A stretch of DNA of 46,189 nucleotides. It comes from a virus. The notes below the pieces were generated by a model. That model made no database searches, was not told the DNA's origin, and saw only the letters and a list, made by a program, of their open reading frames with translations. The translations under genes were made by a program, and so were the position numbers. The stretch lies in IMG/VR virus record IMGVR_UViG_3300025302_000001; one strand, written 5' to 3'. This document shows, piece after piece, positions 6,749 to 22,106 of the stretch (position 1 is its first letter; each line of letters begins with the position of its first letter).

Positions 6749-6783
6749 ATGACTTGGCCCATCAGATCAGGGGAGACCGAGCC

Positions 6784-7149
6784 ATGAACCAGCATCTGCC
6801 GCCTTCCAACCTTCGCGAAGTCAGCATCGTCCCACCGCTCAAGTCCGCCGAGCAGTTCATCGTGGTTCGCGGCACCCGCCGCGGGAACGTGTCCTACGTC
6901 GAGGACACCATGATGAACCGCGCTGACGTGACCGCCCATATCTCGGAAGACATCGAGCAGCTTCATCAAGTCATTGCCTTTGACCTCGCCAACGGCACGT
7001 CCCGCGACGCCACGCTCGAGCTTGTCTCGCTCATCTTCGAGCGCTGGGCGCAGGACGACAAGGAGCTGACCCGTTCCCAGCGTGACACCGTCGCCTCATT
7101 CAAGGGCGAGGCGTTCGCCAACTGCTTCAGGCTTGAGGAGGTGGCGTGA
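6784..7149 (+). CDS. Hypothetical protein (121 aa), first gene of the rightward operon
   Basis: GGGGAG lies upstream of the ATG at 6784 (MNQHLPPS...). Confidence 0.6.
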   Translation: MNQHLPPSNLREVSIVPPLKSAEQFIVVRGTRRGNVSYVEDTMMNRADVTAHISEDIEQLHQVIAFDLANGTSRDATLELVSLIFERWAQDDKELTRSQRDTVASFKGEAFANCFRLEEVA

Positions 7150-7226
7150 TGGAAAACCGCGCCGAACTCATCCTCTGCTGCATCGGCCTCTACGCCATCG
7201 GCTTTTTCATTGGAGTTTCGATATGA
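7149..7226 (+). CDS. Tiny hydrophobic ORF (25 aa)
   Basis: MENRAELILCCIGLYAIGFFIGVSI. TGATG junction upstream, ATGA junction downstream. Confidence 0.35.
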   Translation: MENRAELILCCIGLYAIGFFIGVSI

Positions 7227-7546
7227 GCTTCATGTCTGACTTTGACCTTCAGTTGCAGGCCATCGCCCATGAGATGGTTGAGCCCGGCACCCCCCAGCAG
7301 CTCGTCGAGGAACGCGTTCACCGCCTCGCCGAAGACATGACCGACCTTGCAATGCTCGCGCTCGATCCGGAGCAGAAGCCCCTCATCCAGAGGGAAGCGC
7401 GCGGGATCGCCCAAATCCTTCTCCGCGCCAAGCTAATGCTCTCGGTCTTCGAGGGCGAGGACATCGATCAGATCCGCCGGCTGATCGTCGCGCTGGAAGT
7501 CCCGAAGCGCCCGCTGGGCCAACTGAGTGTGGTGCGAAATGGCTAA
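7223..7546 (+). CDS. Hypothetical protein (107 aa)
   Basis: Start reset to MSFMSDF by ATGA coupling. Confidence 0.6.
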   Translation: MSFMSDFDLQLQAIAHEMVEPGTPQQLVEERVHRLAEDMTDLAMLALDPEQKPLIQREARGIAQILLRAKLMLSVFEGEDIDQIRRLIVALEVPKRPLGQLSVVRNG

Positions 7547-8252
7547 TCGTCTCCCCAAGGAAATCTCCGAGTTCATGGAGAAGTACGGCGTCGGCGCCGA
7601 CGAGGTTTGGCCTGTTCCTGGCGGGAAGGCTTACGCCGTCAAGCACAAGGCGCTGGAGCGGATCGCCGTCACCCAAAGGATCAGCTTCGAGCGGCCCGCC
7701 GTGATTGGCTGCGACCTCGCCGAAAGGAGTATGGTCGTCTGTGTGTTCGGCAAGATGGGCGACCGCGAGGAATGGACGTTCGGCGAGGCTAGCCCAGGCA
7801 ACAACAAGAACCAGTATTTTGCCGCGATGACGGAGAAGCGCGCCAAGGATCGCGTGATCCTGAAGCTTCTGTCTGCTCATGGAGACCTCTATTCCGAGGA
7901 CGAGGCCGAGGACTTCAAGCGGGCCAACCCGCACGTCACGCGCGCGTCGGACATTCTGCCGACGGCGGAATACGACGACCATGGCGAGATCGTTGACAAC
8001 ATCCCGCATGGCGAGCCTTCGCAAAAGCTTCGCGTTGCCGACCAGCGCCCGCTTTTCGCGGCGATCCAGAAAGAGGCACATGCCTTTGGTGACGCCAAGA
8101 AGTTTCTGGCCTGGATGAAGGACGAGAAGACCATCGCGAGGGTCGCGGACTTCAAGCCCGATTGGCAGGAAATGTTTCGCGGTGTTTGCAAGGAGCACCT
8201 TGCAGCACTGCGCACGCAAGAAGCTGGCGACGACATGCGCATGGCTGGATAG
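7539..8252 (+). CDS. Hypothetical protein (237 aa); possible recombination/annealing function by position only
   Basis: Sits immediately upstream of the SSB-like gene. FAAMTEKRAKDRVILKLL vaguely recalls annealing-protein motifs. Not a firm assignment. Confidence 0.55.
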   Translation: MANRLPKEISEFMEKYGVGADEVWPVPGGKAYAVKHKALERIAVTQRISFERPAVIGCDLAERSMVVCVFGKMGDREEWTFGEASPGNNKNQYFAAMTEKRAKDRVILKLLSAHGDLYSEDEAEDFKRANPHVTRASDILPTAEYDDHGEIVDNIPHGEPSQKLRVADQRPLFAAIQKEAHAFGDAKKFLAWMKDEKTIARVADFKPDWQEMFRGVCKEHLAALRTQEAGDDMRMAG

Positions 8253-8261
8253 GAGAGAAAC

Positions 8262-8570
8262 TTGGCCTTTGAACAACGAGACAATTCCGGCGTCCTCTTC
8301 AAGAACGACCGCAAGGAGAAGGACAACCATCCCGACTACACGGGCAACGGCATGATCGACGGGCGCGAGTATTGGATCTCGGCCTGGGTCAAGGACGGCC
8401 AGAAAGGCAAGTTCTTCTCCTTCGCCTTCAAGCCGAAGGAATTGGCGCCGAAGGACCAATTTGTCGGCGGCTCGGGCCGTTCATCGAAGCCTGATCCGAT
8501 CTCGACGGGGCGCCCTCGCAACAGCGACATGGACGACGACCAAATCCCGTTCGCTCCTGAGTTTCGCTGA
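8262..8570 (+). CDS. Putative ssDNA-binding (OB-fold type) protein with an SSB-like acidic DDDQIPF segment
   Basis: TTG start with AGGAGAG upstream. [23 protein letters not shown]... and C-terminal [14 protein letters not shown] resemble an SSB tip. Confidence 0.45.
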
Positions 8571-8590
8571 CTTCACGCTTCGGGGGAAGC

Positions 8591-8908
8591 ATGACCGACA
8601 ACCTACCATGGTCTGAGCAATTCCGCATCGTCGCCAAGCAATGGGTCGATGCAGATGCTGCCGCAACAATCCTTGAGGACACCAAGTCCGCCGTAATGGC
8701 TGAGCGCATGCTCGGCCTTGGGGAGATGGCCGTCAACAAGGCTGAGGCGCTGGTCAAGGCTTCTCCCGAGTGGAAGCGGCACGTCGAGTCCATCGTCAAC
8801 GCCAGGCGCGCCGCGAACCGCCTCAAGGTGCAGATGGAGTATCTGCGCATGAAGTTCTCCGAGTGGCAGTCGCACGAGGCGACAAAGCGGACGGAGGCGC
8901 GTCTATGA
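8591..8908 (+). CDS. Hypothetical protein (105 aa)
   Basis: SD-like GGGGGAAG upstream; helical composition. Confidence 0.65.
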   Translation: MTDNLPWSEQFRIVAKQWVDADAAATILEDTKSAVMAERMLGLGEMAVNKAEALVKASPEWKRHVESIVNARRAANRLKVQMEYLRMKFSEWQSHEATKRTEARL

Positions 8909-9246
8909 GACAGCGCATGCCCCGCGCCCACAACGACGCTCACCTCGAGTTCATCCGTCAATTGCCATGCGTATCTTGCGGTAACGATATCGAGACCCAG
9001 GCGGCACATCTCCGCTCGGACAATCGGATGTACGGCAAGACGACCTCGGGCATGCAGATGAAGCCGGACGACAGATGGACGCTGCCGCTATGCGGGCGCT
9101 GCCATGACGTCCAGCACCGGGGCAATGAGAAGAATTTTTGGACGAACCTCGGGATCAATCCATGGGTTCTGGCGCTCAGCCTGCACGCGGCGAGTGGCGA
9201 CCACGAGCTCGCTCATGAAGTGATCAGCTACCAGGTGCGCCGATGA
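8905..9246 (+). CDS. DUF968-type HNH-like zinc-binding protein
   Basis: HLEFIRQLPCVSCG...AAHLR...LPLCGRCHDVQHRGNEKNFW. ATGA start coupling. Confidence 0.55.
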   Translation: MRQRMPRAHNDAHLEFIRQLPCVSCGNDIETQAAHLRSDNRMYGKTTSGMQMKPDDRWTLPLCGRCHDVQHRGNEKNFWTNLGINPWVLALSLHAASGDHELAHEVISYQVRR

Positions 9247-9338
9247 CCGCCATCGCCGCCATCGTGTTCGGGATCGTCTTCCTGCTGCTTGTGTCTGGCG
9301 TCGCCTATCGCGCGCTGCTGCGGCTGTTCAGGTCGTGA
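9243..9338 (+). CDS. Tiny hydrophobic ORF (31 aa)
   Basis: MTAIAAIVFGIVFLLLVSGVAYRALLRLFRS. ATGA overlap with the upstream stop. Confidence 0.4.
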   Translation: MTAIAAIVFGIVFLLLVSGVAYRALLRLFRS

Positions 9339-9375
9339 GGACGTAATCACTGCCGCTACGACAATGGGGATGCCC

Positions 9376-9549
9376 ATGAGCTACGACGATTGGAAAACGC
9401 ACAACCCGGACGACGACCGCTGCGAATTCTGCGGTGCGGCTCCGTGGGAATGTCGCGGAGGCTGGCAGCCGAACAACTGCACTGGCGAGTGTGGCAAGGG
9501 CTGGCGCGATCCGGACCACGAATACGAAAAGATGCGAGATGAAGCATGA
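9376..9549 (+). CDS. Cys-rich 57-aa protein, paralog A (possible alternative start 9364)
   Basis: MSYDDWKTHNPDDDRCEFCGAAPWECRGGWQPNNCTGECGKGWRDPDHEYEKMRDEA. Near-identical protein at 12764..12937. Confidence 0.65.
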   Translation: MSYDDWKTHNPDDDRCEFCGAAPWECRGGWQPNNCTGECGKGWRDPDHEYEKMRDEA

Positions 9550-9696
9550 GCGAACCCATCAAGCATGTGGACTATCACCACCAGTTTAGTTGGCACGTCG
9601 TCCTATATCGCCTGCGACGGGCGATCGCTCGACACTCATCCCCACTCTCATCGCCTCACTGAGCATGAACCCCCTTCAAAAATAGGAGATTTTGAG

Positions 9697-9924
9697 ATGA
9701 CCATCGAAGAATTCGAACGGGAAGTTAACCGCCACGATCTGACCTATAGCTACAGCGACGATCACAGCGTCTGGCAGCGGGGCTCGGCCCACTATGACAA
9801 GATCCGGAAGGCCGCAGATGCCTTGCCGCGCGCGGACGTGGAGCGCGTCTGGAATGCAATGGTAGACAAGCGGCTGATTGAAGAGGTGCGCCCGCAGTTC
9901 TACTGGCGCTGGCCACAGCGCTGA
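9697..9924 (+). CDS. Hypothetical protein (75 aa)
   Basis: AGGAG upstream of the ATG at 9697 (MTIEEFEREV...). Confidence 0.6.
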   Translation: MTIEEFEREVNRHDLTYSYSDDHSVWQRGSAHYDKIRKAADALPRADVERVWNAMVDKRLIEEVRPQFYWRWPQR

Positions 9925-9963
9925 ACCCCGGCGTCACCCTCTCCTCTCCGAGGTGAGCACCCC

Positions 9964-10050
9964 ATGATCCGCGCCATCCCATACCTGATCACGATACTCA
10001 TCATCGGGGCCGCTTTGTACGGCCTGGGCGTGATGGCGGGGCCGCGATGA
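9964..10050 (+). CDS. Tiny hydrophobic ORF (28 aa)
   Basis: MIRAIPYLITILIIGAALYGLGVMAGPR. GAGGTGAG upstream. Confidence 0.4.
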   Translation: MIRAIPYLITILIIGAALYGLGVMAGPR

Positions 10051-10145
10051 CCTGTCCCGATACCTTCTCCGTCGTCTGCATCTGGTCCGCATGGCTATCA
10101 GCCTGGATCGTTCCTCCAACCGTTTTCGTGATGGTGTGGTCATGA
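10047..10145 (+). CDS. Tiny hydrophobic ORF (32 aa)
   Basis: MTCPDTFSVVCIWSAWLSAWIVPPTVFVMVWS. ATGA overlaps at both ends. Confidence 0.4.
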   Translation: MTCPDTFSVVCIWSAWLSAWIVPPTVFVMVWS

Positions 10146-10516
10146 CTGAAGAACTGACGCCGAAGTGCAGGCTGTGCGGGTTGGAAGATGGCGCCTGCAT
10201 CTGTGCGCACCTGCCGCCGCGATCCTCCGCTGCCACTGAGTATGCCGACAAAAGCGGCCTCGTTGAGGAGCTGGACCTCTACATCAAGAACGCAGAGCGA
10301 TACGAGCGCGGCGATACTGACATTCGAAGGCCCATCCCCGCCGTGACCCTGAAGGTGCTCAAGGCCGAGATAAACGCCCTAGCAAAACTTCGCGAGACCT
10401 ACAGCGAACTGTTTGTCGAAAACCTGAATGTTGTGGCCAGCCGCGACTCCTTGCGTGGCCGCGTCGAAGAATTGGAAGCCAAGCTGCACGGAGGCGACAA
10501 TGACGAGATGTTCTAA
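10142..10516 (+). CDS. Hypothetical protein (124 aa) with an N-terminal Cys cluster and a coiled coil
   Basis: MTEELTPKCRLCGLEDGACICAH... ATGA coupling. Confidence 0.6.
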   Translation: MTEELTPKCRLCGLEDGACICAHLPPRSSAATEYADKSGLVEELDLYIKNAERYERGDTDIRRPIPAVTLKVLKAEINALAKLRETYSELFVENLNVVASRDSLRGRVEELEAKLHGGDNDEMF

Positions 10517-11261
10517 ATGTGGAGGATCTATCGTTGCCTTATCTGATGGCGCAGCTTGCGATCAATGTGACTGGGAATCTGACCGCATTCCCGATGCTGC
10601 CCAAGGTGCAGCGGAGCCCCTGCGCACGGCCGTAGAAGCGCTTCTGCCCACCATCCGCTCCGTGGATCAGGAGACGACGGAGGCGATCGGGCGCGTGCGG
10701 GAAGCCCTCGCCGCCCAGCCGCCGGCCGCTCCGGTCGAGGAAGAAGGCGCACTCGGCTACGCTCAGCGGCTCGCGACTACCCTTTGGGACAAGCACTGGA
10801 AGGCGGGCGCTCCGGAATGGAAGCCGCTACCAGATCTGATCGGCGTTCTGACGCAGATCGACAACATGACGGCTGGGATCTCGCCCTCCTCTGCCGCGAC
10901 TGGCGAAGCGTGGTGCCAGCCGATGGACAACGGCAAGCACTCGGCCCGCAAGTTCCTGCTGTATTTCGAGGACGCCGATCGAGGCATCGCGGTTTTCGAC
11001 AATGAGGCGGAGGCGCGCGAGGCTTTCACGAAGGCCAACACGGCATGGAATTGCTACCTGTTCGGCGCGATGCCGCTCACCGCCACTGAACCGCAGACAC
11101 TCCCGAACCGGGAGGAAATTGCGCGCATTCTTTGGGAGCGGTTCGCCCCGGTTCATCACATCGGCTGGGCTGATGAGACGCATAAGGCCGAATATCTGGC
11201 TGCGGCCGATGCCGTCCTATCACCACTCTCGCGCCCAGTGTCGGGAGGTGGTCATGGCTGA
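10500..11261 (+). CDS. Hypothetical protein (253 aa) with an N-terminal zinc-ribbon-like CxxC...CxxC
   Basis: MTRCSKCGGSIVALSDGAACDQCDW... Confidence 0.6.
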   Translation: MTRCSKCGGSIVALSDGAACDQCDWESDRIPDAAQGAAEPLRTAVEALLPTIRSVDQETTEAIGRVREALAAQPPAAPVEEEGALGYAQRLATTLWDKHWKAGAPEWKPLPDLIGVLTQIDNMTAGISPSSAATGEAWCQPMDNGKHSARKFLLYFEDADRGIAVFDNEAEAREAFTKANTAWNCYLFGAMPLTATEPQTLPNREEIARILWERFAPVHHIGWADETHKAEYLAAADAVLSPLSRPVSGGGHG

Positions 11262-11436
11262 AACATCAGCTCGCCAGCTATTTAAAGCGCTTCCCGGATA
11301 TCCGTTCTTCCCATGCCCGTTGTGTGTGCGGGAAGGCTTCCGCGGGATGGGTGGCTGTGACCATACCGTTCTGGAGCGGGCTCAGTCCACGCATCCTGGA
11401 CTGGTTATGGTTGACCGGCAGGGCCCCTCATCATGA
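11254..11436 (+). CDS. Hypothetical Cys/His-rich protein (60 aa)
   Basis: MAETSARQLFKALPGYPFFPCPLCVREGFRGMGGCDH... Confidence 0.45.
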   Translation: MAETSARQLFKALPGYPFFPCPLCVREGFRGMGGCDHTVLERAQSTHPGLVMVDRQGPSS

Positions 11437-11507
11437 TCTGGCTTTGGCGCCTCGCAATCCTCTACTTCGTCATCGGAATTTTCATCCGTCTTTCAGGTGG
11501 GCACTAA
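11433..11507 (+). CDS. Tiny hydrophobic ORF (24 aa)
   Basis: MIWLWRLAILYFVIGIFIRLSGGH. ATGA upstream and TAATG downstream junctions. Confidence 0.35.
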   Translation: MIWLWRLAILYFVIGIFIRLSGGH

Positions 11508-12517
11508 TGCGCGTCCTTATCGGCTGCGAACAATTCGGTCATATGCGGGAAGCCTTCCGGCGCCGGGGATGGGATGCTTGGTCCTGCGATCTGGCTCCAG
11601 CTCGCGACAACAGCCTCTTCCATCTTCAATGCGACGTTCTGTCGGTTTTAGGTGACGGCTGGGATCTTGGCATCTTCCATCCCGACTGTACCTACCTGAC
11701 GTGCTCGGCGGAATGGGCCTACAACGATCCGGACTTCGAGCGCTATCCCGGCGTCGGCTATCACCAAAAGGTCAAGCCAGACACATTGGTTGGTGCAGCC
11801 AGGCGAGAAGCGCGAGAGCAGGCGATTGAGTTCGTCTTCAAGCTCCGCGACGCGCCGATCCCATATAAGGCCATCGAAAACCCTGTTGGCATTCTCTCGT
11901 CCCGCTGGCGCAAGGCGGATCAGACGGTACAGCCCTATATGTTCGGCGACGACGCCAGCAAGGGCACCTGCTGGTGGCTGGAGGGCGGCTTGCCGAAGCT
12001 GGTGCCAACCAAGCGGGTAGAACCGCGCTTGGTCAATGGCCGCCCGCGCTGGGGCAATCAGACAGATGGCGGGCAAAACAAACTGCCGCCGTCTGAGGAC
12101 CGCGCCATGCTGCGCGCGGAGACCTATCCCGGCCATGCTGAGGCGTGCGCTGATCAGTGGGGTTCCTTCGTCGCGACCCGCCTTGGCCCGCAATTCTCTG
12201 AAATAAGAATTGCCATGCCGTTCATGTCCAGGGCGGTCGAGAGCGACCCTGACCTGGTTTATGCTCCTGACGGCAAACCATGGCGCCAAGTGGCCTTTGA
12301 AGAAGCAGAAAAGCGAGAGCATCTGTTTCAAAAGTATCAGTCCGCACTCAAGAGCGGAGCGATTGAGAGGCCCTCCTCTGATGGAATCGCGGCGGCAATT
12401 CGCGAGACCGAGTACAAATACTTCGGCGACTACGAGTTGTCGGAAAGCCAGCGTGGCGCAGTTGATCTGCTGGTGAATGCAGCGCGCCATCTTTTAGCGG
12501 ATACTCAAAATGACTGA
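11507..12517 (+). CDS. Phage-type DNA cytosine-C5 methyltransferase-like protein with a ~115-aa C-terminal extension
   Basis: MRVLIGCEQFGHMREAF..., HPDCTYLT, IENPVG and ...ADQWG match the short phage family usually annotated as DNA cytosine methyltransferase. Confidence 0.55.
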   Translation: MRVLIGCEQFGHMREAFRRRGWDAWSCDLAPARDNSLFHLQCDVLSVLGDGWDLGIFHPDCTYLTCSAEWAYNDPDFERYPGVGYHQKVKPDTLVGAARREAREQAIEFVFKLRDAPIPYKAIENPVGILSSRWRKADQTVQPYMFGDDASKGTCWWLEGGLPKLVPTKRVEPRLVNGRPRWGNQTDGGQNKLPPSEDRAMLRAETYPGHAEACADQWGSFVATRLGPQFSEIRIAMPFMSRAVESDPDLVYAPDGKPWRQVAFEEAEKREHLFQKYQSALKSGAIERPSSDGIAAAIRETEYKYFGDYELSESQRGAVDLLVNAARHLLADTQND

Positions 12518-12767
12518 TCTTGTTATCATCTCGAAGCACCCGAAGGGCTTCTGGCAGGCCGATCTCTACCGCGATGCGTGGGATATTCCGCCACTCGAAT
12601 TCGAGCAAATGGGACTTTCGCCTGACGAGTTTTTCACATTGAAGCAGGGCGAGTCCCGGATAGCGGCGGTGCACCGGGCTCGGCAAAAGTGGCCTGGAGC
12701 AAAGATCGACGGGAAGCCTATTTTTGGTAGCGCCGCGCTGTCTTCGCAGAACGGAGCTGCCCCATGA
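12510..12767 (+). CDS. Hypothetical protein (85 aa)
   Basis: Track ORF, coupled at both ends. Confidence 0.6.
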   Translation: MTDLVIISKHPKGFWQADLYRDAWDIPPLEFEQMGLSPDEFFTLKQGESRIAAVHRARQKWPGAKIDGKPIFGSAALSSQNGAAP

Positions 12768-12937
12768 GCTACGACGATTGGAAAACGCATAATCCGGACG
12801 ATGACCGCTGCGAGTTTTGCGGTGCGGCTCCGTGGGAGTGTCGTGGTGGATGGCAGCCGAACAAGTGCAGCGGGGAGTGCGGTACTGGATGGCGCGATCC
12901 CGACCACGAATACGAAAAAATGAGGGATGAGGCATGA
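12764..12937 (+). CDS. Cys-rich 57-aa protein, paralog B
   Basis: MSYDDWKTHNPDDDRCEFCGAAPWECRGGWQPNKCSGECGTGWRDPDHEYEKMRDEA. ATGA overlaps at both ends. Below the track cutoff. Confidence 0.65.
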   Translation: MSYDDWKTHNPDDDRCEFCGAAPWECRGGWQPNKCSGECGTGWRDPDHEYEKMRDEA

Positions 12938-13167
12938 CTGATTGGCGCAAACTTACTGATCGTGAAGTGGTGGACGCAATGCAGGCCGACACGCCTGTCA
13001 ACCGAGTCCGGCGCATCTTCAGCGGCGAAGCTGCGAGACTTGAGCAGGCCGGCATGCAGCGATCCCCTCCGGGTCCAGTCGAATATAGGCGGATGGAATT
13101 TGAAGCGGCCGAGAAGTTGATTGAGGCCATGCATCCGCACACTCCCCAGGACACCATCCATGATTAG
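12934..13167 (+). CDS. Hypothetical protein (77 aa)
   Basis: Track ORF with ATGA coupling. Confidence 0.55.
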   Translation: MTDWRKLTDREVVDAMQADTPVNRVRRIFSGEAARLEQAGMQRSPPGPVEYRRMEFEAAEKLIEAMHPHTPQDTIHD

Positions 13168-13333
13168 GCCAACCCGCAAGCAGATCGAGGCCGCTGTCAA
13201 GGTGCTGAACGATGAAGGATTCAACATCTGCCTTCCTTGGGAAGGCGATTTGGATGATGTCGAGCGCGCCAGATATGAGGCGGTGAAAGGCGCGATTGCG
13301 GCGGCTATCAATGTTGCTGTGAAAGGAGCGTGA
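13160..13333 (+). CDS. Hypothetical protein (57 aa)
   Basis: Start reset to MIRPTRKQIEAAVKVLNDEGF... Confidence 0.5.
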   Translation: MIRPTRKQIEAAVKVLNDEGFNICLPWEGDLDDVERARYEAVKGAIAAAINVAVKGA

Positions 13334-13334
13334 G

Positions 13335-13583
13335 ATGGTGGCTTTTTCGACCATCAAGCCTGGTGACGTGCTTTGGGATTGCCATCGCGAGAAGATGGGC
13401 AACACCAAGATGACGCGCATGGGGACGTGGCGCGTCGTCGTGTACGAGGTCGATCAGGAGACGCGAAGCGCCATGGTCTCCTGGAACGGCAATCCGCGCA
13501 AGATTTGGGGCGAGCGCAAGCTGAAGGCGCTGCGGCGGTCGAAGCCCGGCAGTCGCCCTCCTGTGGGAGGAGCGCGTGAGTGA
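13335..13583 (+). CDS. Hypothetical protein (82 aa)
   Basis: AAAGGAG upstream of the ATG at 13335. Confidence 0.6.
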   Translation: MVAFSTIKPGDVLWDCHREKMGNTKMTRMGTWRVVVYEVDQETRSAMVSWNGNPRKIWGERKLKALRRSKPGSRPPVGGARE

Positions 13584-13779
13584 TCTTGTCAGCGAGACGA
13601 TGCGGCAAATCGCAACCGCGCCGATTTGTGAGCCTGTAGGCGACCAAAGAGTCGAGCGATGCCCGTGGGCGAGGACTGGCTGGGCTGTCGTCGAGAATGA
13701 CGGTTGTTGCACATGCCGCCCGGCGCCCCCTCCGGCTCACCACGAAGCACCTGAAACGAAAGGGGCAAGTCAGTCATGA
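13576..13779 (+). CDS. Hypothetical Cys-rich protein (67 aa, GTG start)
   Basis: Track ORF overlapping its neighbours by a few nt. Confidence 0.45.
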   Translation: MSDLVSETMRQIATAPICEPVGDQRVERCPWARTGWAVVENDGCCTCRPAPPPAHHEAPETKGASQS

Positions 13780-14153
13780 ATCGTCTGCTCACACTGGCTC
13801 AGGCGGCGGCCGAGCTGGGTGTGTCAAAGCGCTGGTTTCAGTATTGGCTTGCCCAAAACCCAGTGGATAGCGCAGGAATTCCGTTTTACGTTCCGATCGG
13901 TCGGAACAAGCGTTTCGACCAAGCCGATATCGGCCGGATCAAATCATCCATTCGTGAGGGGGAACGATGCCGCTTAAACTCTATCGGCGCAACGGGATCT
14001 ACCATTATCGCGGAACAGTTGGCCCAGCTGGCAAGCGCAAGCGTCTTCGGGGTTCGTGCCAAACCACGAACCAAGACATCGCAGCGCGTCAGATTGCGGA
14101 GCTTGAAGCCGGATACTGGAAAGGTCATTTCGATGGACCAGCAGCGATCCTGA
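13776..14153 (+). CDS. xis: Excisionase-like HTH protein; the functional 3' end is uncertain because the ORF runs 187 nt into int
   Basis: LLTLAQAAAELGVSKRWFQYWLA...IPFYVPIGRNKRFDQADIGRIKSSI is an excisionase-type HTH located directly upstream of int. Confidence 0.6.
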   Translation: MNRLLTLAQAAAELGVSKRWFQYWLAQNPVDSAGIPFYVPIGRNKRFDQADIGRIKSSIREGERCRLNSIGATGSTIIAEQLAQLASASVFGVRAKPRTKTSQRVRLRSLKPDTGKVISMDQQRS

Positions 14154-14980
14154 CATTCGCCCATGCCTGCGAGCTTTATCGCGCCGCCGGCAAGGCAGAC
14201 CGCTTCCTCGATCCGATTGCGAAGTTTCTCGGTAACACCCTGGTCAAGGACTTGTCCGAAGGCTCGATCCAGATGATGGCGAAGAAGCTGTATCCGGACT
14301 ACAGCGGAGCGAGCCTCAACCGCGCCGTGATCGTGCCGACGCAGGCTGTGATTAATCACGCAGCCAAGGCGAAACTCTGCTCGCCGATCAAGGTGACGTG
14401 GTACAAGGAAGAGACGAAAATCAAAGAGCCGGTCACACTCGAATGGATCGAGGAATTCCGGAAAGAGGCGTCCCCTCACCTCGGCGCCATGGCCCTGTTC
14501 ATGTACCTGACCGGCGCGCGACCTAGCGAGGCAATTGCTGTGCAGTGGTCCGACATCGACCTGACCGACCGAACGGTCCGGATTCGCCAGACCAAGACCA
14601 GTGCGGAGCGGGTCTCTCACCTTCCGATGCCGCTTGTCGTCGCGCTCGCCAATCTGCCGAAGGTCCCCAAGCGGGGCGTGTTTGTCTACCAGCGCAGGCC
14701 CGACGCCTGGAACGCTTGGCAGGGCGCCATCGGCCGCGCCGGCATCAAGCCGCTGACCATGCATTCCTGCCGCCACGGCTTCGCTACAGGGCTTCTCCGG
14801 CGCGGGGTGGACGTTGTGACCGTCGCTTGGTTGGGCGGCTGGGCGAGCCCCGCACAGGTTCTACAGACCTATGGGCACGCCACGAAGAACCCGCGGCTGA
14901 CAGAGTTGCTCATTGGCACTGAACTGACACACATCCTCAACGACGAGGCGAAAAACAAAGACGCTGCAAAGGCTTCCTGA
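13967..14980 (+). CDS. int: Tyrosine integrase
   Basis: MPLKLYRRNGIYHYRG N-terminus. Catalytic signature residues: TGARPSE, HSCRHGFAT, LQTYGH. Confidence 0.95.
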   Translation: MPLKLYRRNGIYHYRGTVGPAGKRKRLRGSCQTTNQDIAARQIAELEAGYWKGHFDGPAAILTFAHACELYRAAGKADRFLDPIAKFLGNTLVKDLSEGSIQMMAKKLYPDYSGASLNRAVIVPTQAVINHAAKAKLCSPIKVTWYKEETKIKEPVTLEWIEEFRKEASPHLGAMALFMYLTGARPSEAIAVQWSDIDLTDRTVRIRQTKTSAERVSHLPMPLVVALANLPKVPKRGVFVYQRRPDAWNAWQGAIGRAGIKPLTMHSCRHGFATGLLRRGVDVVTVAWLGGWASPAQVLQTYGHATKNPRLTELLIGTELTHILNDEAKNKDAAKAS

Positions 14981-15058
14981 GATAGGGCTTCTCCTGCTCC
15001 AGGAAGATACTCCGGAACTGACGACGCAAAATTCCTCTTCAAATCAAAGGACTAAGAC

Positions 15059-15346
15059 ATGACCGAAGTAACCGAAGGTGCACCGGAAGGCATGAACGAC
15101 TCGGGAACATGCACGCCGGTTGACCCAAAACTGACACAGCCACGTTCTTGGCCCGTTCTCCGCGCCTCGATGATCAAGCGGCGCGAGATCGAAGGAGCCG
15201 AGAGCCCCAAAGGCCGCGCCCTCTCCAACCTGATTGAGATGGGCGACAACGCCGAGACCTATGTTCGCCCGAGTTGGGCTACCGATCGCCGCCAAGCGCT
15301 GCCCTACTTCATGGAGCGCGAGGCCGCACGTCTTGGTGGGATGTGA
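15059..15346 (+). CDS. Hypothetical protein (95 aa)
   Basis: AAGGA upstream of the ATG. Confidence 0.55.
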   Translation: MTEVTEGAPEGMNDSGTCTPVDPKLTQPRSWPVLRASMIKRREIEGAESPKGRALSNLIEMGDNAETYVRPSWATDRRQALPYFMEREAARLGGM

Positions 15347-15360
15347 GGAGCGAGGATGCC

Positions 15361-15603
15361 ATGCAGGGCCTTAGATTTTTTCAGCGGACAAACGACAAGC
15401 ATTGGCGGAATCTGGCGTCGTACCACGACCCCAACTCCATCACCTGGTCGTGGATTTTGTCATTCGGCACGAGGAAGCCTGACGAGCCGTGGGTTTGGTA
15501 CTTCTTCCACTCTAGTAGGCGCCGCTGGGATCTGTGTCTGCTGAGCTTCCGGCTGTGCTGGCAGACGCAAAGCAAGATGCCGTATCGCCGTTCCACGCCC
15601 TGA
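15361..15603 (+). CDS. Hypothetical Trp-rich protein (80 aa)
   Basis: Start reset to MQGLRFFQ (GAGGAG upstream). Ends in the repeated 16-mer CTGACGAGGAGAGTGC. Confidence 0.45.
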   Translation: MQGLRFFQRTNDKHWRNLASYHDPNSITWSWILSFGTRKPDEPWVWYFFHSSRRRWDLCLLSFRLCWQTQSKMPYRRSTP

Positions 15604-15653
15604 CGAGGAGAGTGCGAGACCCCACCCTGTAACAATACGTGATTACGAAATAG

Positions 15654-15679
15654 TTGCGTATACGCAAATTATGCGTATA
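15654..15679. promoter_or_regulatory. Perfect 14-bp palindrome TTGCGTATACGCAA (15654..15667) plus half-site ATGCGTATA (15671..15679) in an AT-rich spacer
   Basis: Read directly. Lies upstream of the 54-aa / HTH gene pair. Confidence 0.45.
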
Positions 15680-15708
15680 GTAATCTCCATCAACCACGGA
15701 GAACGTAA

Positions 15709-15873
15709 ATGACCAAGCTGACCCTCGGAACCGCCCAGATGACCATCCGCTCGAACGGTTCGGTTTTCCTTCGCTATATGAACGTCGGCTCGTTCCTGGT
15801 TGGCGAGCGGGCTTGCTTCGATGAAGCCGAGGCTCGCGAGTTCTGCCGTAGCCGCGGCATCCGGGTTCTTTGA
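15709..15873 (+). CDS. Hypothetical protein (54 aa)
   Basis: GGAG 8 nt upstream. MTKLTLGTAQMTIRSNGSVFLRYMNVGSFLVGERACFDEAEAREFCRSRGIRVL. Below the track cutoff. Confidence 0.5.
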   Translation: MTKLTLGTAQMTIRSNGSVFLRYMNVGSFLVGERACFDEAEAREFCRSRGIRVL

Positions 15874-16058
15874 TGACCCCAGCCCAATACAAAGCTGCCA
15901 TCAAGGCGCTGGGGCTGTCTCAGGAGCGTGCCGGGAATTGGCTAGGTGTCTCTCTCCGCACCAGCCAGAACTACGCCGCTAAGGGGCCTCCAGAGCCCGT
16001 CGCCAAGCTTCTACGCCTTTGCATCAAGCTCAAGCTTAATCCTGAGGACGTAAAATGA
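15873..16058 (+). CDS. Small HTH protein (61 aa)
   Basis: MTPAQYKAAIKALGLSQERAGNWLGVSLRTSQNYAAKG. TGATG coupling. Confidence 0.65.
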   Translation: MTPAQYKAAIKALGLSQERAGNWLGVSLRTSQNYAAKGPPEPVAKLLRLCIKLKLNPEDVK

Positions 16059-16477
16059 ACGAGACCCGCATCATCCCCTGCGAAGCCTGTGGCGGCGACG
16101 GCGGCTTTACGGAGCCCGTCAGCATGAGCCCGTTCAGTGGCCGAATCCGTGAGCAGGTTTTCGAGTGCCACGCCTGCGGCGGGACCGGCGAAGTCGAGGT
16201 CGAACTTCAAGAGATCGAGATGGAGGATCTGACGATGCGTGAAGAGATCATCGAAGAATGCGCCAAGGTCGTGGAACCGAAGGGGCCTCGGCCTTGCGAT
16301 TGTGAGCGCTGCGACTGCGGCAATCACGGGGATATGGCGGCGGTTGCTGCTTGGGACGCAGATGCGGCTAACGCCAGGGCCATTAGGGCGCTGTGCGCCG
16401 AAGCCAAGGATTATGACGCCATGCTCACCACCGGCGTTATCCCGGAATCGCTCCGACATCGATTCAAGTCGGCATAG
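16055..16477 (+). CDS. Protein with two DnaJ-type CxxCxGxG zinc-finger motifs
   Basis: CEACGGDG and CHACGGTG, plus a CDCERCDCGNH cluster. Confidence 0.6.
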   Translation: MNETRIIPCEACGGDGGFTEPVSMSPFSGRIREQVFECHACGGTGEVEVELQEIEMEDLTMREEIIEECAKVVEPKGPRPCDCERCDCGNHGDMAAVAAWDADAANARAIRALCAEAKDYDAMLTTGVIPESLRHRFKSA

Positions 16478-16526
16478 GGTTCGGCGGTGAGGCGGGGTCA
16501 CTGCCTGACACAAATAGGAGAATGAA

Positions 16527-16883
16527 ATGAACGCATCTGCACCATGCCCCAAGGATTCCGCGATCATGCAGACCTGGGAGATGTACAAACTATCTGAGGA
16601 ATACAGGAACAGCCGTAGTTGGGCCACGCGATTTATTCCCGACGACGACCCGGCCGAGCTGGAGCGCATCCGAGCCAACGGCTCAAACCCGTGGACCAAA
16701 GAAATGAAGATACAAGCCGTCGAGGGATCGCTGTGGGCGGCATTCCTGCATGGGTGGCTGGAGGCCGGCGGTGCCGATCCTCACAAGCCGCTTCCGACCT
16801 TGGAGGAACTCGAACACCTGATCAATAGCGTGGACGATATCCCGATCGAGATCATGCCGAATGGCAGTATCCGCAGGATCTAG
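16527..16883 (+). CDS. Hypothetical protein (118 aa)
   Basis: AGGAG upstream. Confidence 0.6.
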   Translation: MNASAPCPKDSAIMQTWEMYKLSEEYRNSRSWATRFIPDDDPAELERIRANGSNPWTKEMKIQAVEGSLWAAFLHGWLEAGGADPHKPLPTLEELEHLINSVDDIPIEIMPNGSIRRI

Positions 16884-16910
16884 GGGTACGGCGCTCTGGC
16901 AAGGGGAACG

Positions 16911-17096
16911 ATGATGATGATCGACGGAAAGACTGAACTAGAGTTTAGCGATTGGCAGCGCACGCCTTGGTGGCTGTTTTGGCGGCCAACATGGCGCCGA
17001 TATCACTGGCGCTGGACGGTCGATTGGCGGGGCTGCGAATGCGTCTACGCTTGGCAGTACGCGCCGAGTGGCTTTCATCCGGCCGACCCGATCTGA
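16911..17096 (+). CDS. Hypothetical Trp-rich protein (61 aa)
   Basis: WQRTPWWLFWRPTWRRYHWRWTVDWRG. Ends in the repeated 16-mer CTGACGAGGAGAGTGC. Confidence 0.5.
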   Translation: MMMIDGKTELEFSDWQRTPWWLFWRPTWRRYHWRWTVDWRGCECVYAWQYAPSGFHPADPI

Positions 17097-17115
17097 CGAG
17101 GAGAGTGCTGAACCC

Positions 17116-17331
17116 ATGAGCGACATCGTTGAACGACTGCGGAACTTCCGTCGTGGAGAAGCCCCTCAGATCATGTTTGAGGCTGCCGACGAGATCGAGA
17201 GGCAGTTTGATAAAGTCACAAAATACGAAGCCGCACTGCGCAATATCGCCAACAAGTGCCCGGCCACATGCGACATGACCTTAGCCCATGAGATGGCGCA
17301 AGAGGCTGAAGGTGCACTTAGAGGAGAATGA
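17116..17331 (+). CDS. Hypothetical protein (71 aa)
   Basis: Start reset to MSDIVERL. The SD is supplied by the repeated 16-mer. Confidence 0.55.
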   Translation: MSDIVERLRNFRRGEAPQIMFEAADEIERQFDKVTKYEAALRNIANKCPATCDMTLAHEMAQEAEGALRGE

Positions 17332-17445
17332 GTATGCCTCCAGAACATTATCAACAACTGCCAAAAGGCGTTCGGTGCAGGTGCCTCAGACTATGGTGCG
17401 AGGCTGATGGAACTTACTGGTGCTGCAACATAAGGGCTCGGGAAA

Positions 17446-17637
17446 ATGAGCAACGAACAGATCTATTACGACCGCCTGAAACGCATCGCCAAGGGGTCCC
17501 AGAAGACGAGCCAGCTTCGTCGCAATAGCGAACGCGGCTTCGGACTGGATTATATCGAAGCGCTGGAGATGGCCTACGAGAACCTGCAAGAAGCGGCGGC
17601 AAGCGCTATCCGCGGCAAGCGCAGGCCGAAGCAATAG
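17446..17637 (+). CDS. Hypothetical basic protein (63 aa)
   Basis: Strong third-position GC by eye. Confidence 0.55.
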   Translation: MSNEQIYYDRLKRIAKGSQKTSQLRRNSERGFGLDYIEALEMAYENLQEAAASAIRGKRRPKQ

Positions 17638-17664
17638 GGGTTACTCGGTGAGGCGGGGGAAGTC

Positions 17665-17958
17665 ATGAAGCGGCAGTTTGACATTGCAGAACTGGTGAGA
17701 CCGGACGGTGTGGTTCCGGTCGATATCGAAACTACGGCCGGGTTGGTCAGGGAGGTGCTGAGGCTCCGCAAGGGCATCCAAGACTTTCTGGATGGCAACT
17801 ACCCCCACCCGCGCAGCTACCGGGCACAAGGCCCACAGACCAAATGCCCTCACGGCCATTACTACTACGAGGACTGCAATAGCTGCGATACGGAGCACTT
17901 CTCGCGCCTGCTCGGCGAGACGTACACACTTCGGCAAGGCAACCAAGGGAGCGCATAA
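17665..17958 (+). CDS. Hypothetical protein (97 aa) with a CPHGH...CNSC cluster
   Basis: The SD lies within the repeated CGGTGAGGCGGGG motif. Confidence 0.6.
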   Translation: MKRQFDIAELVRPDGVVPVDIETTAGLVREVLRLRKGIQDFLDGNYPHPRSYRAQGPQTKCPHGHYYYEDCNSCDTEHFSRLLGETYTLRQGNQGSA

Positions 17959-18242
17959 TGGACGATCTATTTCAGCTCGACCGAGCGCTGACGCCAGCGG
18001 AGCGCCGCCGGCTGAATACGAAGCCGAAGGTGAAGAAGACCGGCCACGCTTGGCGCCCTGGTACGGGGCCGCAGGGCGAGACCTGCAAAACCTGCAAGCA
18101 TCTGGTCCGCAAGCAAATGTCCAAGGTCTACTTGAAGTGCGGTCTAATGCGAGCGCACTGGACTGGCGGCGGTGGGACCGATGTTCGCGCGGGCGATCCA
18201 GCTTGCCGCGAGTGGGCTTCAGAGCATTCGAATGGCAAGTGA
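17958..18242 (+). CDS. Hypothetical Cys-rich protein (94 aa)
   Basis: ETCKTCKHL...KCGL...DPACREW. TAATG coupling. Confidence 0.6.
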   Translation: MDDLFQLDRALTPAERRRLNTKPKVKKTGHAWRPGTGPQGETCKTCKHLVRKQMSKVYLKCGLMRAHWTGGGGTDVRAGDPACREWASEHSNGK

Positions 18243-18249
18243 GGACGAC

Positions 18250-18342
18250 ATGACGGGGATAGAGCGAGAGATTGCGGCCGGGATCACATGGTTCTTGTTC
18301 TTTGTGCTGCCGGTCCTGATCTTCTTTTGGCGTGGCGCGTAA
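18250..18342 (+). CDS. Tiny hydrophobic ORF (30 aa)
   Basis: MTGIEREIAAGITWFLFFVLPVLIFFWRGA. GAGGA upstream. Confidence 0.4.
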   Translation: MTGIEREIAAGITWFLFFVLPVLIFFWRGA

Positions 18343-18373
18343 TAACTTCTGACCGAACATTGAGGATAGGAAA

Positions 18374-18697
18374 ATGATCTATTTCGCTCGCGGCTTTGGT
18401 AGCCCGCTTGACGACCTCGCTCCTGAAGTTGCGTCCTGCTTTGGTCTGGTCCTGAATCCGATGCGTGGAAGAATGGAGGAGCAGCGCCTGGTTGCCGTCT
18501 CCGAAATTAAGCCCGAGCTAGAAAACCTGCTCACCGGCGAGCGCGTTGATGGCTATCAGGACGACAACTGGAGCAAATGCTTCCGTTCCGGCGGACCACT
18601 AGAGTGGTTCAACCCACCCACGTTTCCAGATCGCGCGGACGATTGGGGGCACGGTATCATTGAGTTGCGGCGCGACGGATGGCGCCGGGTGGCATAA
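18374..18697 (+). CDS. Hypothetical protein (107 aa)
   Basis: GAGGATAGGA upstream. Confidence 0.6.
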   Translation: MIYFARGFGSPLDDLAPEVASCFGLVLNPMRGRMEEQRLVAVSEIKPELENLLTGERVDGYQDDNWSKCFRSGGPLEWFNPPTFPDRADDWGHGIIELRRDGWRRVA

Positions 18698-18726
18698 TTG
18701 GTGCTGAGCAGTCACGGAGCCGGTCC

Positions 18727-18852
18727 ATGAGCGAACACGACATAATGGTCCTGAAGATGATGTGCGGAACGATCATCTCCGGAATCAGCATGGTATTCTT
18801 TGCCTACGGCGCCGGCCTCATTTATCGAAGCTGGGGCTGGTGGCACTTATAA
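18727..18852 (+). CDS. Small hydrophobic ORF (41 aa)
   Basis: MSEHDIMVLKMMCGTIISGISMVFFAYGAGLIYRSWGWWHL. GGAG upstream. Confidence 0.4.
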   Translation: MSEHDIMVLKMMCGTIISGISMVFFAYGAGLIYRSWGWWHL

Positions 18853-18871
18853 GCGAACACGGAGAACTCCC

Positions 18872-21824: not shown

Positions 21825-22106
21825 TTAGAGTTTGATGATCTTCAGGCCGATATAGCGGGCAAGAAGGTATTCAATGCGAGCGCCGCCGCTGCGCCACCAG
21901 CCGGGCAGGAGCGCGATGGCCTCCGCCTCAAGGCACAGATACGGCAGCAGGTAGGCCATGATCTTGTTGAGCGGCGTTCCTTCGAGGTTCGCGGCTGCCG
22001 GGTTGAAGACGTGGTGACCCTGCTTGCGCAAGTCGTCAGCAGCGCGCGCGAACACCTCGAAGTAGTTCGGGCGGCCACTGATCTTGCCAGCGAGATAGAC
22101 CCTCAT
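21825..22106 (-). CDS. DUF4406 protein (nucleoside 2-deoxyribosyltransferase/Rcl-like fold)
   Basis: MRVYLAGKISG...GHHVFNPA...AIALLPGWWRSGGARIEYLLA matches the DUF4406 pattern. Confidence 0.8.
   Translation of the reverse strand: MRVYLAGKISGRPNYFEVFARAADDLRKQGHHVFNPAAANLEGTPLNKIMAYLLPYLCLEAEAIALLPGWWRSGGARIEYLLARYIGLKIIKL

What the first reader, a model, noticed from the sequence alone, without database searches (positions are those of the whole stretch)
7149..18852. Seven tiny (24-41 aa) hydrophobic ORFs threaded through the rightward early operon, most of them translationally coupled to neighbours
These are missed by the 60-aa ORF track.
- 7149..7226: MENRAELILCCIGLYAIGFFIGVSI
- 9243..9338: MTAIAAIVFGIVFLLLVSGVAYRALLRLFRS
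- 9964..10050: MIRAIPYLITILIIGAALYGLGVMAGPR
- 10047..10145: MTCPDTFSVVCIWSAWLSAWIVPPTVFVMVWS
- 11433..11507: MIWLWRLAILYFVIGIFIRLSGGH
- 18250..18342: MTGIEREIAAGITWFLFFVLPVLIFFWRGA
- 18727..18852: MSEHDIMVLKMMCGTIISGISMVFFAYGAGLIYRSWGWWHL

Each is a single predicted TM helix. Five use ATGA, TGATG or TAATG junctions and the others have good SD motifs. They exactly fill gaps that would otherwise be untranslated. Two more small TM ORFs sit in the late operon (22103..22246 and 24345..24500). A family-like set of single-pass micropeptides in an early operon suggests modulators of host membrane proteins (transport, division, signalling, exclusion) rather than noise.
Basis: seen in the sequence. Interest (0 to 1): 0.58.

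Follow-up and report, generated by a model that had tools for sequence, protein, structure and literature searches.

The report
Tiny membrane-protein genes in phage operon
The seven tiny hydrophobic reading frames are real: at least four are selectively maintained genes for one-helix membrane peptides in a Bradyrhizobium-type soil phage. Small membrane peptide genes of this kind are already known from phages, and what these ones do is untested.

Summary
All seven ORFs exist exactly as described, with the stated overlapping junctions or Shine-Dalgarno motifs.

They are far beyond chance:
- Only 8 of 257 small ATG-ORFs in all six frames of the window are strongly TM-like.
- Shuffling each gap gives P <= 0.003.
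- Their pooled third-position GC (0.76) equals that of trusted genes.

Four have homologues under strong purifying selection (7149, 9243, 18250, 18727). For 18250 and 18727, DNA similarity to relatives starts and stops at the ORF itself (within about 6 nt for 18727), with unrelated flanks. These two are therefore gene-sized mobile cassettes. One homologue is already a RefSeq hypothetical protein of Bradyrhizobium ottawaense.

Three (9964, 10047, 11433) have no relatives in anything I searched. They rest on intrinsic evidence only, and 10047 is the weakest.

The seven are not paralogues, so they form a class rather than a family. None matches Pfam or PHROGs.

The function is inferred, not shown: insertion into the inner membrane and action through helix-helix contacts. 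The late ORF 24345 is a lysis-cassette gene.

This scan has already found conserved membrane micropeptide genes in other phages' early operons. I therefore rate this as new members of a known kind.

The parts
7149..7226 (+). 25-aa single-TM micro-gene (family 1). It is overlap-coupled to 6784-7149 (TGATG) and to 7223-7546 (ATGA), and has a strong SD, GAGGAGG.
   Evidence: KD17 2.56. Syntenic homologues lie directly upstream of the 7223-like gene in six viral contigs: L043 9728-9808, L044 9088-9174, L049 9644-9730, L045 9622-9711, L047 9474-9563 and L046 9584-9679. dN/dS is 0.09/0.56 for L044 vs L049 and 0.175/1.24 for L045 vs L047.
9243..9338 (+). 31-aa single-TM micro-gene (family 2) with a basic C-tail (RALLRLFRS). 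It is ATGA-coupled to the DUF968/HNH gene 8905-9246.
   Evidence: KD17 2.90; GC3 0.88. L049 11723-11815 is 68% identical in protein, with dN 0.24 and dS 0.60. A minor 1308-nt contig in the source sample covers 9049-9339. Its ORF keeps the frame, and I read its differences as 3 synonymous changes plus hydrophobic swaps (inference). A coupled small TM gene follows DUF968 in 5 of 7 loci.
9964..10050 (+). 28-aa single-TM micro-ORF with no known relatives. SD GAGGTG lies 8 nt upstream, and it is ATGA-coupled to 10047.
   Evidence: KD17 2.34; GC3 0.83; shuffle P about 0.002. No homologue was found.
10047..10145 (+). 32-aa Trp-rich hydrophobic micro-ORF with no known relatives, ATGA-coupled at both ends. 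It is the weakest of the seven.
   Evidence: KD17 1.68 and codon score -0.09. The public gene call for the downstream gene starts at 10091 and overlaps this ORF by 55 nt. The overlap region does not discriminate between the frames.
11433..11507 (+). 24-aa single-TM micro-ORF with no known relatives. It fills the 70-nt gap exactly: ATGA with 11254-11436 and TAATG with the DNA methyltransferase gene 11507-12517.
   Evidence: KD17 2.21; shuffle P 0.0003. No homologue was found. Homologues of the upstream gene (L142, L143) lack it. L013 has an unrelated 28-aa TM ORF directly upstream of its methyltransferase.
18250..18342 (+). 30-aa single-TM micro-gene with SD GAGGA. It behaves as a mobile cassette.
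   Evidence: KD17 2.45. The homologue P0012 in L134 3030-3122 is 90% identical in protein and 73% in DNA. Differences by codon position are 4/1/19, giving 20 synonymous against 4 non-synonymous changes. DNA similarity runs only from the ATG to the last codon, and the flanks are unrelated.
18727..18852 (+). 41-aa single-TM micro-gene with SD GGAG, a Gly/Ser-rich helix face and the C-terminal motif SWGWWHL. It behaves as a mobile cassette.
   Evidence: It has homologues of 80-88% identity and the same length in three unrelated contexts: L129, L130 and L137. L137 is Bradyrhizobium ottawaense, where the protein is WP_283808293.1. dN is 0.06-0.12 and dS is at least 0.95. Similarity is confined to the ORF plus or minus about 6 nt. 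AlphaFold2 predicts one helix over residues 3-40 with pLDDT 86.6.
22103..22246 (-). 47-aa two-TM protein in the late (minus-strand) operon.
   Evidence: KD17 2.57. It belongs to a 4-member 90% cluster that includes a Bradyrhizobium diazoefficiens protein.
24345..24500 (-). 51-aa protein with an N-terminal TM segment, lying inside the lysis cassette.
   Evidence: It lies between the endolysin gene 24500-25075 (phrog_7, E 6e-33) and the holin-like gene 23953-24345 (phrog_3427). It belongs to a 62-member cluster with Bradyrhizobium genome members.
7223..7546 (+). 107-aa gene always found immediately downstream of the family-1 micro-gene, whatever lies upstream.
8905..9246 (+). DUF968/HNH-type gene whose stop is overlapped by the start of the family-2 micro-gene.
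   Evidence: Pfam PF06147, E 6.5e-10; PHROG HNH endonuclease.

Best explanation
The seven ORFs are genuine small genes, of 24-41 codons, for single-pass inner-membrane peptides. They are carried as accessory cassettes in the + strand early/accessory gene run of a temperate Bradyrhizobium-type soil phage.

How they are translated (inferred from the sequence signals): either from their own Shine-Dalgarno sites (7149, 9964, 18250, 18727) or by termination-reinitiation at ATGA/TGATG/TAATG overlaps (7149, 9243, 10047, 11433).

What selection sees (shown): the peptide itself. Homologues keep the frame, the length and the hydrophobic helix while silent sites are saturated. Each micro-gene moves between phages on its own, as a unit of about 100 bp.

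How they act (inferred, not shown): the peptides insert into the cytoplasmic membrane. For most, the acidic N-end would face out and the basic C-end in. They would act without catalysis, by helix-helix contact through small-residue (G/A/S) faces with larger host or phage membrane proteins during early infection or induction.

Strength of support: four of the seven (7149, 9243, 18250, 18727) have comparative evidence. The other three (9964, 10047, 11433) rest on intrinsic signals only.
For: - The ORFs and their junctions are as stated.
- TM-like small ORFs are almost confined to these gaps: 6 of the 8 in the whole window.
- Gap shuffles give P <= 0.003.
- Pooled GC3 is 0.76, the same as trusted genes, and 46% of codons have T at position 2.
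- Family 1 is present at the same junction in six relatives whose neighbouring proteins are only 26-81% identical. dN/dS is about 0.15.
- Family 2 is found in L049, and in a minor strain contig that keeps the frame.
- 18250: 20 synonymous against 4 non-synonymous differences, and similarity ends at the ORF borders.
- 18727: dN about 0.06-0.12 with dS of at least 0.95, in three unrelated contexts. One is a Bradyrhizobium ottawaense chromosome.
- AlphaFold2 predicts a single helix for 18727.
- Relatives' early regions are similarly rich in such ORFs.
Against: - There is no expression or localisation data. No RNA run is available.
- 9964, 10047 and 11433 have no homologue anywhere I searched, and gene callers did not call them.
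- 10047 has marginal hydropathy (1.68), two central prolines and a negative codon score. It also competes with an alternative start (10091) of the next gene.
- The dN/dS values come from 25-41 codons each.
- Membrane insertion, topology and any binding partner are inference only. No known family matches.
Confidence: 0.7

Rival explanations
1. These are ribosome-relay ORFs. They are translated only to carry ribosomes across gaps so that the next gene is reinitiated, and the peptide itself is irrelevant and quickly degraded.
For: Five of the seven have overlapping stop/start junctions, and several fill their gap exactly. The three with no relatives cannot be tested for selection on the peptide.
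Against: A relay needs only an open frame. Yet four of the peptides show amino-acid-level purifying selection with saturated silent sites. Hydrophobicity is far above what the gap composition gives. 18250 and 18727 have their own SD and spacers on both sides, and they occur with unrelated neighbours.
Confidence: 0.08
2. Some or all are membrane-damaging or exclusion factors, rather than regulators of specific partners. They might be type-I-toxin-like or holin-like depolarising peptides, or superinfection-exclusion proteins.
For: They are the same size and hydropathy class as Hok/TisB/DinQ-type toxins and small exclusion proteins (background knowledge; PMC12648545). The phage is temperate: it has an integrase, and the 18727 homologue sits in a Bradyrhizobium chromosome.
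Against: The genes are embedded in long co-directional gene runs, with overlap coupling rather than standalone promoter/antisense-RNA loci. They are not next to the lysis genes, which lie at 23953-25075. I made no test of toxicity.
Confidence: 0.15
3. The three ORFs with no relatives (9964, 10047, 11433) are recent de novo or chance ORFs in junction DNA between mosaic modules. They would be translated weakly or not at all and would not be under selection.
For: No homologue appeared in viral, genome or metagenome searches. All three lie in a 3.2-kb block bracketed by a 177-nt direct repeat, which suggests recent mosaic assembly. 10047 has weak intrinsic scores.
Against: Shuffles of the same gaps rarely give such ORFs, with P of 0.0003-0.002. 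Two of the three have overlap junctions at both ends. GC3 of 9964 is 0.83.
Confidence: 0.25
4. All seven are chance ORFs, that is, annotation noise.
For: At 59% GC, short ORFs are very common: 215 ORFs of at least 20 aa lie in this 12 kb.
Against: See (statistics; selection).
Confidence: 0.02

Closest known systems
Bacterial small single-pass inner-membrane proteins that bind larger membrane proteins (MgrB, AcrZ, KdpF, MgtS and others; review PMC12648545)
   Same: They are under 50 aa, consist of one TM helix with no catalytic domain, are often missed by annotation, and carry small-residue helix faces.
   Different: There is no sequence relationship. These ORFs are phage-borne, sit in long co-directional gene runs with overlap coupling, and have no known partner.
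Phage PhiNM1 Gp11, a small membrane early protein that binds MurG and DivIC (PMC11237401)
   Same: It is a small membrane protein encoded among phage early genes that acts on host membrane-associated machinery.
   Different: The host is Gram-positive and the sequence is unrelated. Its function was shown experimentally, whereas nothing comparable has been tested here.
Phage small-gene families in general (Fremin, Bhatt and Kyrpides 2022, as cited in the review PMC11323111)
   Same: They are small phage genes, largely unannotated and of unknown function.
   Different: I could not read that paper, so I cannot say whether these particular families are in its catalogue. No PHROG or Pfam model matches them.
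The 27-residue membrane micropeptide gene of lambdoid prophages found earlier in this scan (e1-412880, e1-408170 and others)
   Same: It is a conserved, overlap-coupled, roughly 100-bp one-helix gene in a phage early/accessory operon that travels as a cassette. One instance is chained to a DNA methylase, as 11433 is here.
   Different: It comes from a different host clade (E. coli), and no sequence comparison was made. Here there are seven unrelated ones in a single gene run. Those notes are unchecked by me.
Type I toxins (Hok, TisB, DinQ, Ibs and others)
   Same: Their size and hydrophobic single helix are the same.
   Different: There is no standalone locus and no sign of an antisense RNA arrangement. 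The genes are co-translated with their neighbours.

Membership tests
Small single-pass membrane protein (class, not homology family) | Length under about 50 aa | tested here: met
   The seven are 24-41 aa.
Small single-pass membrane protein (class, not homology family) | One hydrophobic segment long enough to span a membrane | tested here: met
   The best 17-residue KD window is 1.68-2.90 in all seven. 10047 is marginal and is interrupted by two adjacent prolines (PP).
Small single-pass membrane protein (class, not homology family) | Helical conformation | tested here: met
   Tested for 18727 only. AlphaFold2 gives a helix over residues 3-40 with pLDDT 86.6.
Small single-pass membrane protein (class, not homology family) | Actual synthesis and membrane localisation | not testable with these tools
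   No RNA or proteomic data are available.
Protein-coding gene under purifying selection | Homologues keep the frame and length, with differences mostly synonymous | tested here: met
   Met for 7149, 9243, 18250 and 18727. It could not be assessed for 9964, 10047 and 11433, which have no homologues.
   In 21 pairwise local alignments against shuffles, the lowest P is 0.023. This is not significant after multiple testing.
Any Pfam or PHROG family | A profile match at a significant E-value | tested here: not met
   The best E-values are 0.015-0.6.
Type I toxin-antitoxin | A standalone toxin ORF with an overlapping or adjacent antisense RNA gene | tested here: not met
   The ORFs are overlap-coupled inside co-directional gene runs. 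The promoter scan found no excess of sites. I made no search for an antisense RNA.
Holin / lysis-cassette membrane protein | Position next to the endolysin gene | tested here: not met
   The endolysin gene is at 24500-25075 on the other strand. Only the late ORF 24345..24500 meets this feature.

The most novel reading that the evidence does not exclude
The micro-genes may not be free-standing host modulators. They may instead be position-specific partners of the DNA-metabolism genes they are coupled to.

Two observations point this way. First, a small TM gene, often unrelated in sequence, sits ATGA-coupled directly after the DUF968/HNH gene in 5 of 7 loci. Second, family 1 always sits directly before the 7223-like gene, whatever lies upstream.

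This pattern would fit membrane anchors that tether the early recombination/replication proteins, or the translating polycistronic mRNA, to the inner membrane. It would also fit operon junctions acting as nurseries where TM micro-genes arise de novo and are then exchanged as roughly 100-bp cassettes.
Probability: 0.1. Interest if true: 0.7.

Novelty: new member of a known kind. Interest (0 to 1): 0.38.

Why it matters
Genes of 24-41 codons fall at or below the size that standard gene callers report. The protein collection held four of the seven, and the gene call for 10091-10516 runs over another.

This window shows that a single phage gene run can hide seven such genes. It also shows that the unit of phage mosaicism can be as small as one 90-126-bp micro-gene, because similarity ends at the ORF borders for 18250 and 18727.

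For Bradyrhizobium, a crop symbiont, the micro-genes are candidate phage factors acting at the host membrane. Three previously undescribed micro-protein families are defined here (7149, 9243 and 18727), and a single homologue was found for 18250. Bradyrhizobium prophages carrying relatives of this region (B. ottawaense for 18727, B. tropiciagri for the recombination module) offer places to test such genes.

The finding does not change how we think phages work.

Tried and rejected
- No whole genome is held for the window.
- Megablast and blastn against the phage collection gave nothing syntenic.
- A genome-contig scan with the single protein found nothing. The alignment query gave 4 loci.
- Both metagenome scans (10142-10516 and 10500-11261) found no relative.
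- Viral scans with 10500-11261 and 10142-10516 found none.
- 10142-10516 has no homologue in 5.8 billion proteins, only its own call from 10091.
- A degenerate DNA pattern for the N-terminus of 11433 hit only chance sites in AT-rich contigs.
- An exhaustive HMMER search with 18250 found only itself at the 50% representative level. Its relative P0012 came from the 90% cluster list instead.
- Homologues of neighbouring genes lack micro-TM ORFs at the matching junctions: L127 for 18374-18697, L142 and L143 for 11254-11436, and L138-L141 for 9697-9924.
- Pfam and PHROGs gave no hit for any micro-ORF.
- The PDB profile search for the 7539 protein gave nothing.
- The homodimer prediction for the 18727 family gave no support (score 0.03). 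This is not evidence either way.
- No RNA holder is listed for this DNA, so expression could not be examined.
- A crude 'gap versus overlapping ORF' Fisher test using all start codons and an incomplete gene map was uninformative. I replaced it with the ATG-ORF census and the gap shuffles.
- L135 and L136 are the same phage as the window (100% identity), so I did not count them as independent.
- Fremin et al. 2022 could not be read.

Full report
**What the window is**

The window is about 59% GC. A co-directional run of small genes lies on the + strand from about 6290 to 20325. It converges on a minus-strand structural and lysis module at 20319-46189.

No whole genome is held for it. The DNA comes from a rhizosphere metagenome.

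The nearest relatives of its recombination-module protein (7539-8252) are seven soil viral contigs, L043-L049, at 62-79% protein identity. There are also prophages in Bradyrhizobium tropiciagri (71%) and Afipia (49%). Homologues of two of the micro-proteins lie in Bradyrhizobium genomes. The host is therefore very probably a Bradyrhizobium or a close relative.

Recognisable neighbours on the + strand are:
- an SSB-like gene at 8262-8570;
- a DUF968/HNH gene at 8905-9246;
- a DNA methyltransferase at 11507-12517;
- an integrase at 13967-14980;
- an HNH endonuclease at 19479-20159.

Because the integrase lies in the middle, 'rightward early operon' is only an approximation.

**The observation**

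All seven ORFs are present exactly as listed. I read the junctions directly from the sequence:

| ORF | Upstream junction or SD | Downstream junction |
|---|---|---|
| 7149 | Shares one base with the stop of 6784-7149 (TGATG); SD GAGGAGG | Stop lies inside the ATGA that starts 7223-7546 |
| 9243 | ATGA on the stop of the DUF968 gene | none |
| 9964 | GAGGTG 8 nt upstream | Ends in the ATGA that starts 10047 |
| 10047 | ATGA with 9964 | Ends in the ATGA that starts 10142-10516 |
| 11433 | ATGA on the stop of 11254-11436 | Ends in TAATG, which starts the methyltransferase |
| 18250 | SD GAGGA, with short spacers | short spacer |
| 18727 | SD GGAG, with short spacers | short spacer |

**More than chance**

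At this GC content short ORFs are everywhere: 215 ORFs of at least 20 aa lie in these 12 kb. Hydrophobic ones are not.

- Of 257 ATG-initiated ORFs of 20-60 aa in all six frames of the 46-kb window, only eight have a 17-residue Kyte-Doolittle window of 2.0 or more. The other two lie antisense to structural genes. The remaining two of the seven score 1.94 and 1.68.
- Shuffling each gap, with mono- or dinucleotide composition preserved, reproduces an equally hydrophobic ORF with P <= 0.003 in every case.
- Pooled over 204 codons, GC at codon positions 1/2/3 is 0.50/0.45/0.76. Trusted long genes give 0.58/0.48/0.76. The two alternative frames of the same DNA give 'third-position' values of 0.52 and 0.45. 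T occupies codon position 2 in 46% of codons.
- The strict density of such ORFs is about ten times higher in 6700-19100 than in the rest of the window. It is also above the 90th percentile of 38 other high-GC loci. The relatives L050 and L043 are similarly rich.

**Conservation: four of the seven**

*Family 1 (7149).* A 26-31-aa ORF with the same layout occupies the same place in six relatives: a short polar N-end with E/R, then a Cys- and Gly/Ala-containing helix. In each it lies directly before the 7223-like gene, with ATGA, TAATG, TGATG or GTGA overlaps. This holds although the upstream gene differs among the loci. It is absent from L048, L050, L123, L124 and L125, so it is accessory. Pairwise differences concentrate at third codon positions: dN/dS is 0.09/0.56 and 0.175/1.24.

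*Family 2 (9243).* L049 carries a 30-aa homologue, 68% identical, with the shared motif LLLVSGxAYRALLR. It is ATGA-coupled to its DUF968 gene, with dN 0.24 and dS 0.60. In the source sample, a low-depth second strain contig aligns over 9049-9339. By my reading of the listed differences, its ORF has three synonymous changes, six hydrophobic swaps, and a one-base deletion compensated three bases later. The alignment stops at the ORF's stop codon.

*18250.* The 90% cluster holds a second sequence, P0012. It lies in an unrelated 7.3-kb phage contig, L134, between genes that have no counterpart in the window. The two ORFs differ at 24 of 90 bases, 19 of them at third positions. That is 20 synonymous changes against 4 non-synonymous. 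DNA similarity begins at the ATG and ends at the last sense codon.

*18727.* Eight cluster members plus P0002 are all 41 aa, apart from one longer gene call. In L129, L130 and L137 the similarity is confined to the ORF plus or minus about 6 nt. The contexts are unrelated. L137 is a Bradyrhizobium ottawaense chromosome, where RefSeq already lists the protein as hypothetical (WP_283808293.1). dN is 0.06-0.12 and dS is at least 0.95. AlphaFold2 on the three-sequence alignment predicts one uninterrupted helix over residues 3-40, with mean pLDDT 86.6.

**The three without relatives**

9964, 10047 and 11433 are not in the protein collection. They have no tblastn match in the 1.4 Mb of related loci. 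Homologues of their neighbouring genes do not carry them.

They lie in a 3.2-kb block bracketed by a 177-nt direct repeat of 87% identity. The repeat is a duplicated 57-aa Cys-rich gene. This points to recent mosaic assembly.

9964 and 11433 have good intrinsic evidence. 10047 is the weakest:
- its hydropathy is 1.68;
- it has two adjacent prolines (PP) in mid-segment;
- its codon score is negative;
- the public gene call for the next gene starts at 10091 and overlaps it;
- the 51-nt overlap does not favour either frame.

My estimate that each is a real gene is about 0.75 for 9964, 0.7 for 11433 and 0.55 for 10047.

**A class, not a family**

None of the 21 pairwise comparisons exceeds its shuffles after correction for multiple testing. 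None of the seven matches Pfam or PHROGs.

**A positional pattern**

The DUF968/HNH gene is followed by one or two ATGA-coupled small TM genes in 5 of 7 loci.
- With small TM genes: the window, L049, L043, L045 and L134. Several of these TM genes are unrelated to one another.
- Without: L048 and L124.

I cannot tell whether this is a functional pairing or simply an insertion hot spot.

**How they most likely work**

Shown:
- the frames are maintained by selection on the peptide;
- the peptides are hydrophobic helices;
- the genes are independent cassettes.

Inferred from the sequence signals: they are translated by reinitiation or from their own SD.

Inferred from flank charges: several have a topology with the N-end out and the C-end in. 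Examples are 9243 with C-tail RALLRLFRS, and 18250 and 18727 with an acidic N-end and a basic C-end.

Inferred by analogy only: they act by helix packing through G/A/S faces, such as GAALYGLG in 9964 and SGISxxxxxYGAG in 18727. The partners would be larger membrane proteins. The precedents are PhiNM1 Gp11 (PMC11237401) and the bacterial small membrane proteins reviewed in PMC12648545. A relay-only role is contradicted for four of the seven. A toxin or exclusion role is not excluded.

**The two 'late' ORFs**

Both are on the minus strand.
- 24345..24500 lies between an endolysin gene and a holin-like gene, so it is a lysis-cassette component. It belongs to a 62-member cluster in Bradyrhizobium.
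- 22103..22246 is a conserved 47-aa two-TM protein.

**Comparison with what is known, and verdict**

Small phage proteins, including membrane ones, are a recognised and largely unexplored class (PMC11323111 and the Fremin et al. 2022 paper it cites). This scan has already reported conserved overlap-coupled membrane micropeptide genes in lambdoid and other coliphage early operons. I did not check those notes.

What is new here:
- three undescribed micro-protein families;
- an unusual density, with seven in about 12 kb;
- clean evidence that single micro-genes are exchanged as units.

I rate this as a new member of a known kind, of moderate interest.

Noticed in passing
window 9373-9549 and 12761-12937: A 177-nt direct repeat of 87% identity, made of two copies of a 57-aa Cys-rich gene (both begin MSYDDWKTHNPDDDRCEFCG). 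The copies bracket a 3.2-kb block that holds the methyltransferase gene and three of the micro-ORFs. It looks like a recombination-built mosaic insert.
   Followed up: partly
window 8905-9246 and loci L049, L043, L045, L134: The DUF968/HNH gene is followed by one or two ATGA-coupled small TM genes in 5 of 7 loci, often with unrelated sequences. Examples are L045 (47 aa, two TM), L134 1219-1407 and 1407-1496, and a second micro-TM ORF in L049 at 11819-11929. This could be a hot spot or a functional pairing.
   Followed up: partly
window 18872-19051 and 19076-19273: Two adjacent small genes are paralogues: 35% identity over 46 aa, E 1e-10, with a shared D-V-[IV]-I-K-N-P motif (written in pattern notation).
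   Followed up: yes
window 13776-14153 and 13967-14980: An excisionase-like HTH gene overlaps the integrase gene by about 187 nt. A similar overlap of about 175 nt is seen in the Bradyrhizobium tropiciagri prophage (L123 16709-17074 and 16900-17940). The integrase sits in the middle of the + strand gene run, so that run is not one simple early operon.
   Followed up: no
window 9546-9662: A 38-aa ATGA-coupled ORF that is not hydrophobic and has a poor codon score (-0.25). It lies in a 147-nt gap before a strong SD at 9697. It is probably non-coding spacer or a regulatory stretch.
   Followed up: no
window 10091-10516: The public gene call (141 aa) starts at ATG 10091, which has no SD, and overlaps micro-ORF 10047 by 55 nt. 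ATG 10142 (ATGA-coupled) is the alternative start. The protein has no homologue in 5.8 billion sequences.
   Followed up: partly
window 6660-6681: A strong terminator-like hairpin with a T-run lies right after the Cro/XRE-like gene 6290-6631 and before the first gene of the + strand run. Read-through or antitermination would be needed.
   Followed up: no
L084 1453-1533 and L103 5253-5330: Two distant AT-rich relatives of the 7539 module share a conserved 25-26-aa TM micro-ORF (starting MLDV[VL]AHLC) upstream of the module. This is another candidate micro-gene family.
   Followed up: no
window 385-498 (minus strand): A 37-aa moderately hydrophobic ORF (KD17 1.81) abuts the ORF at 498-611 near the window's left end. 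It may be a further small membrane gene of the late operon.
   Followed up: no
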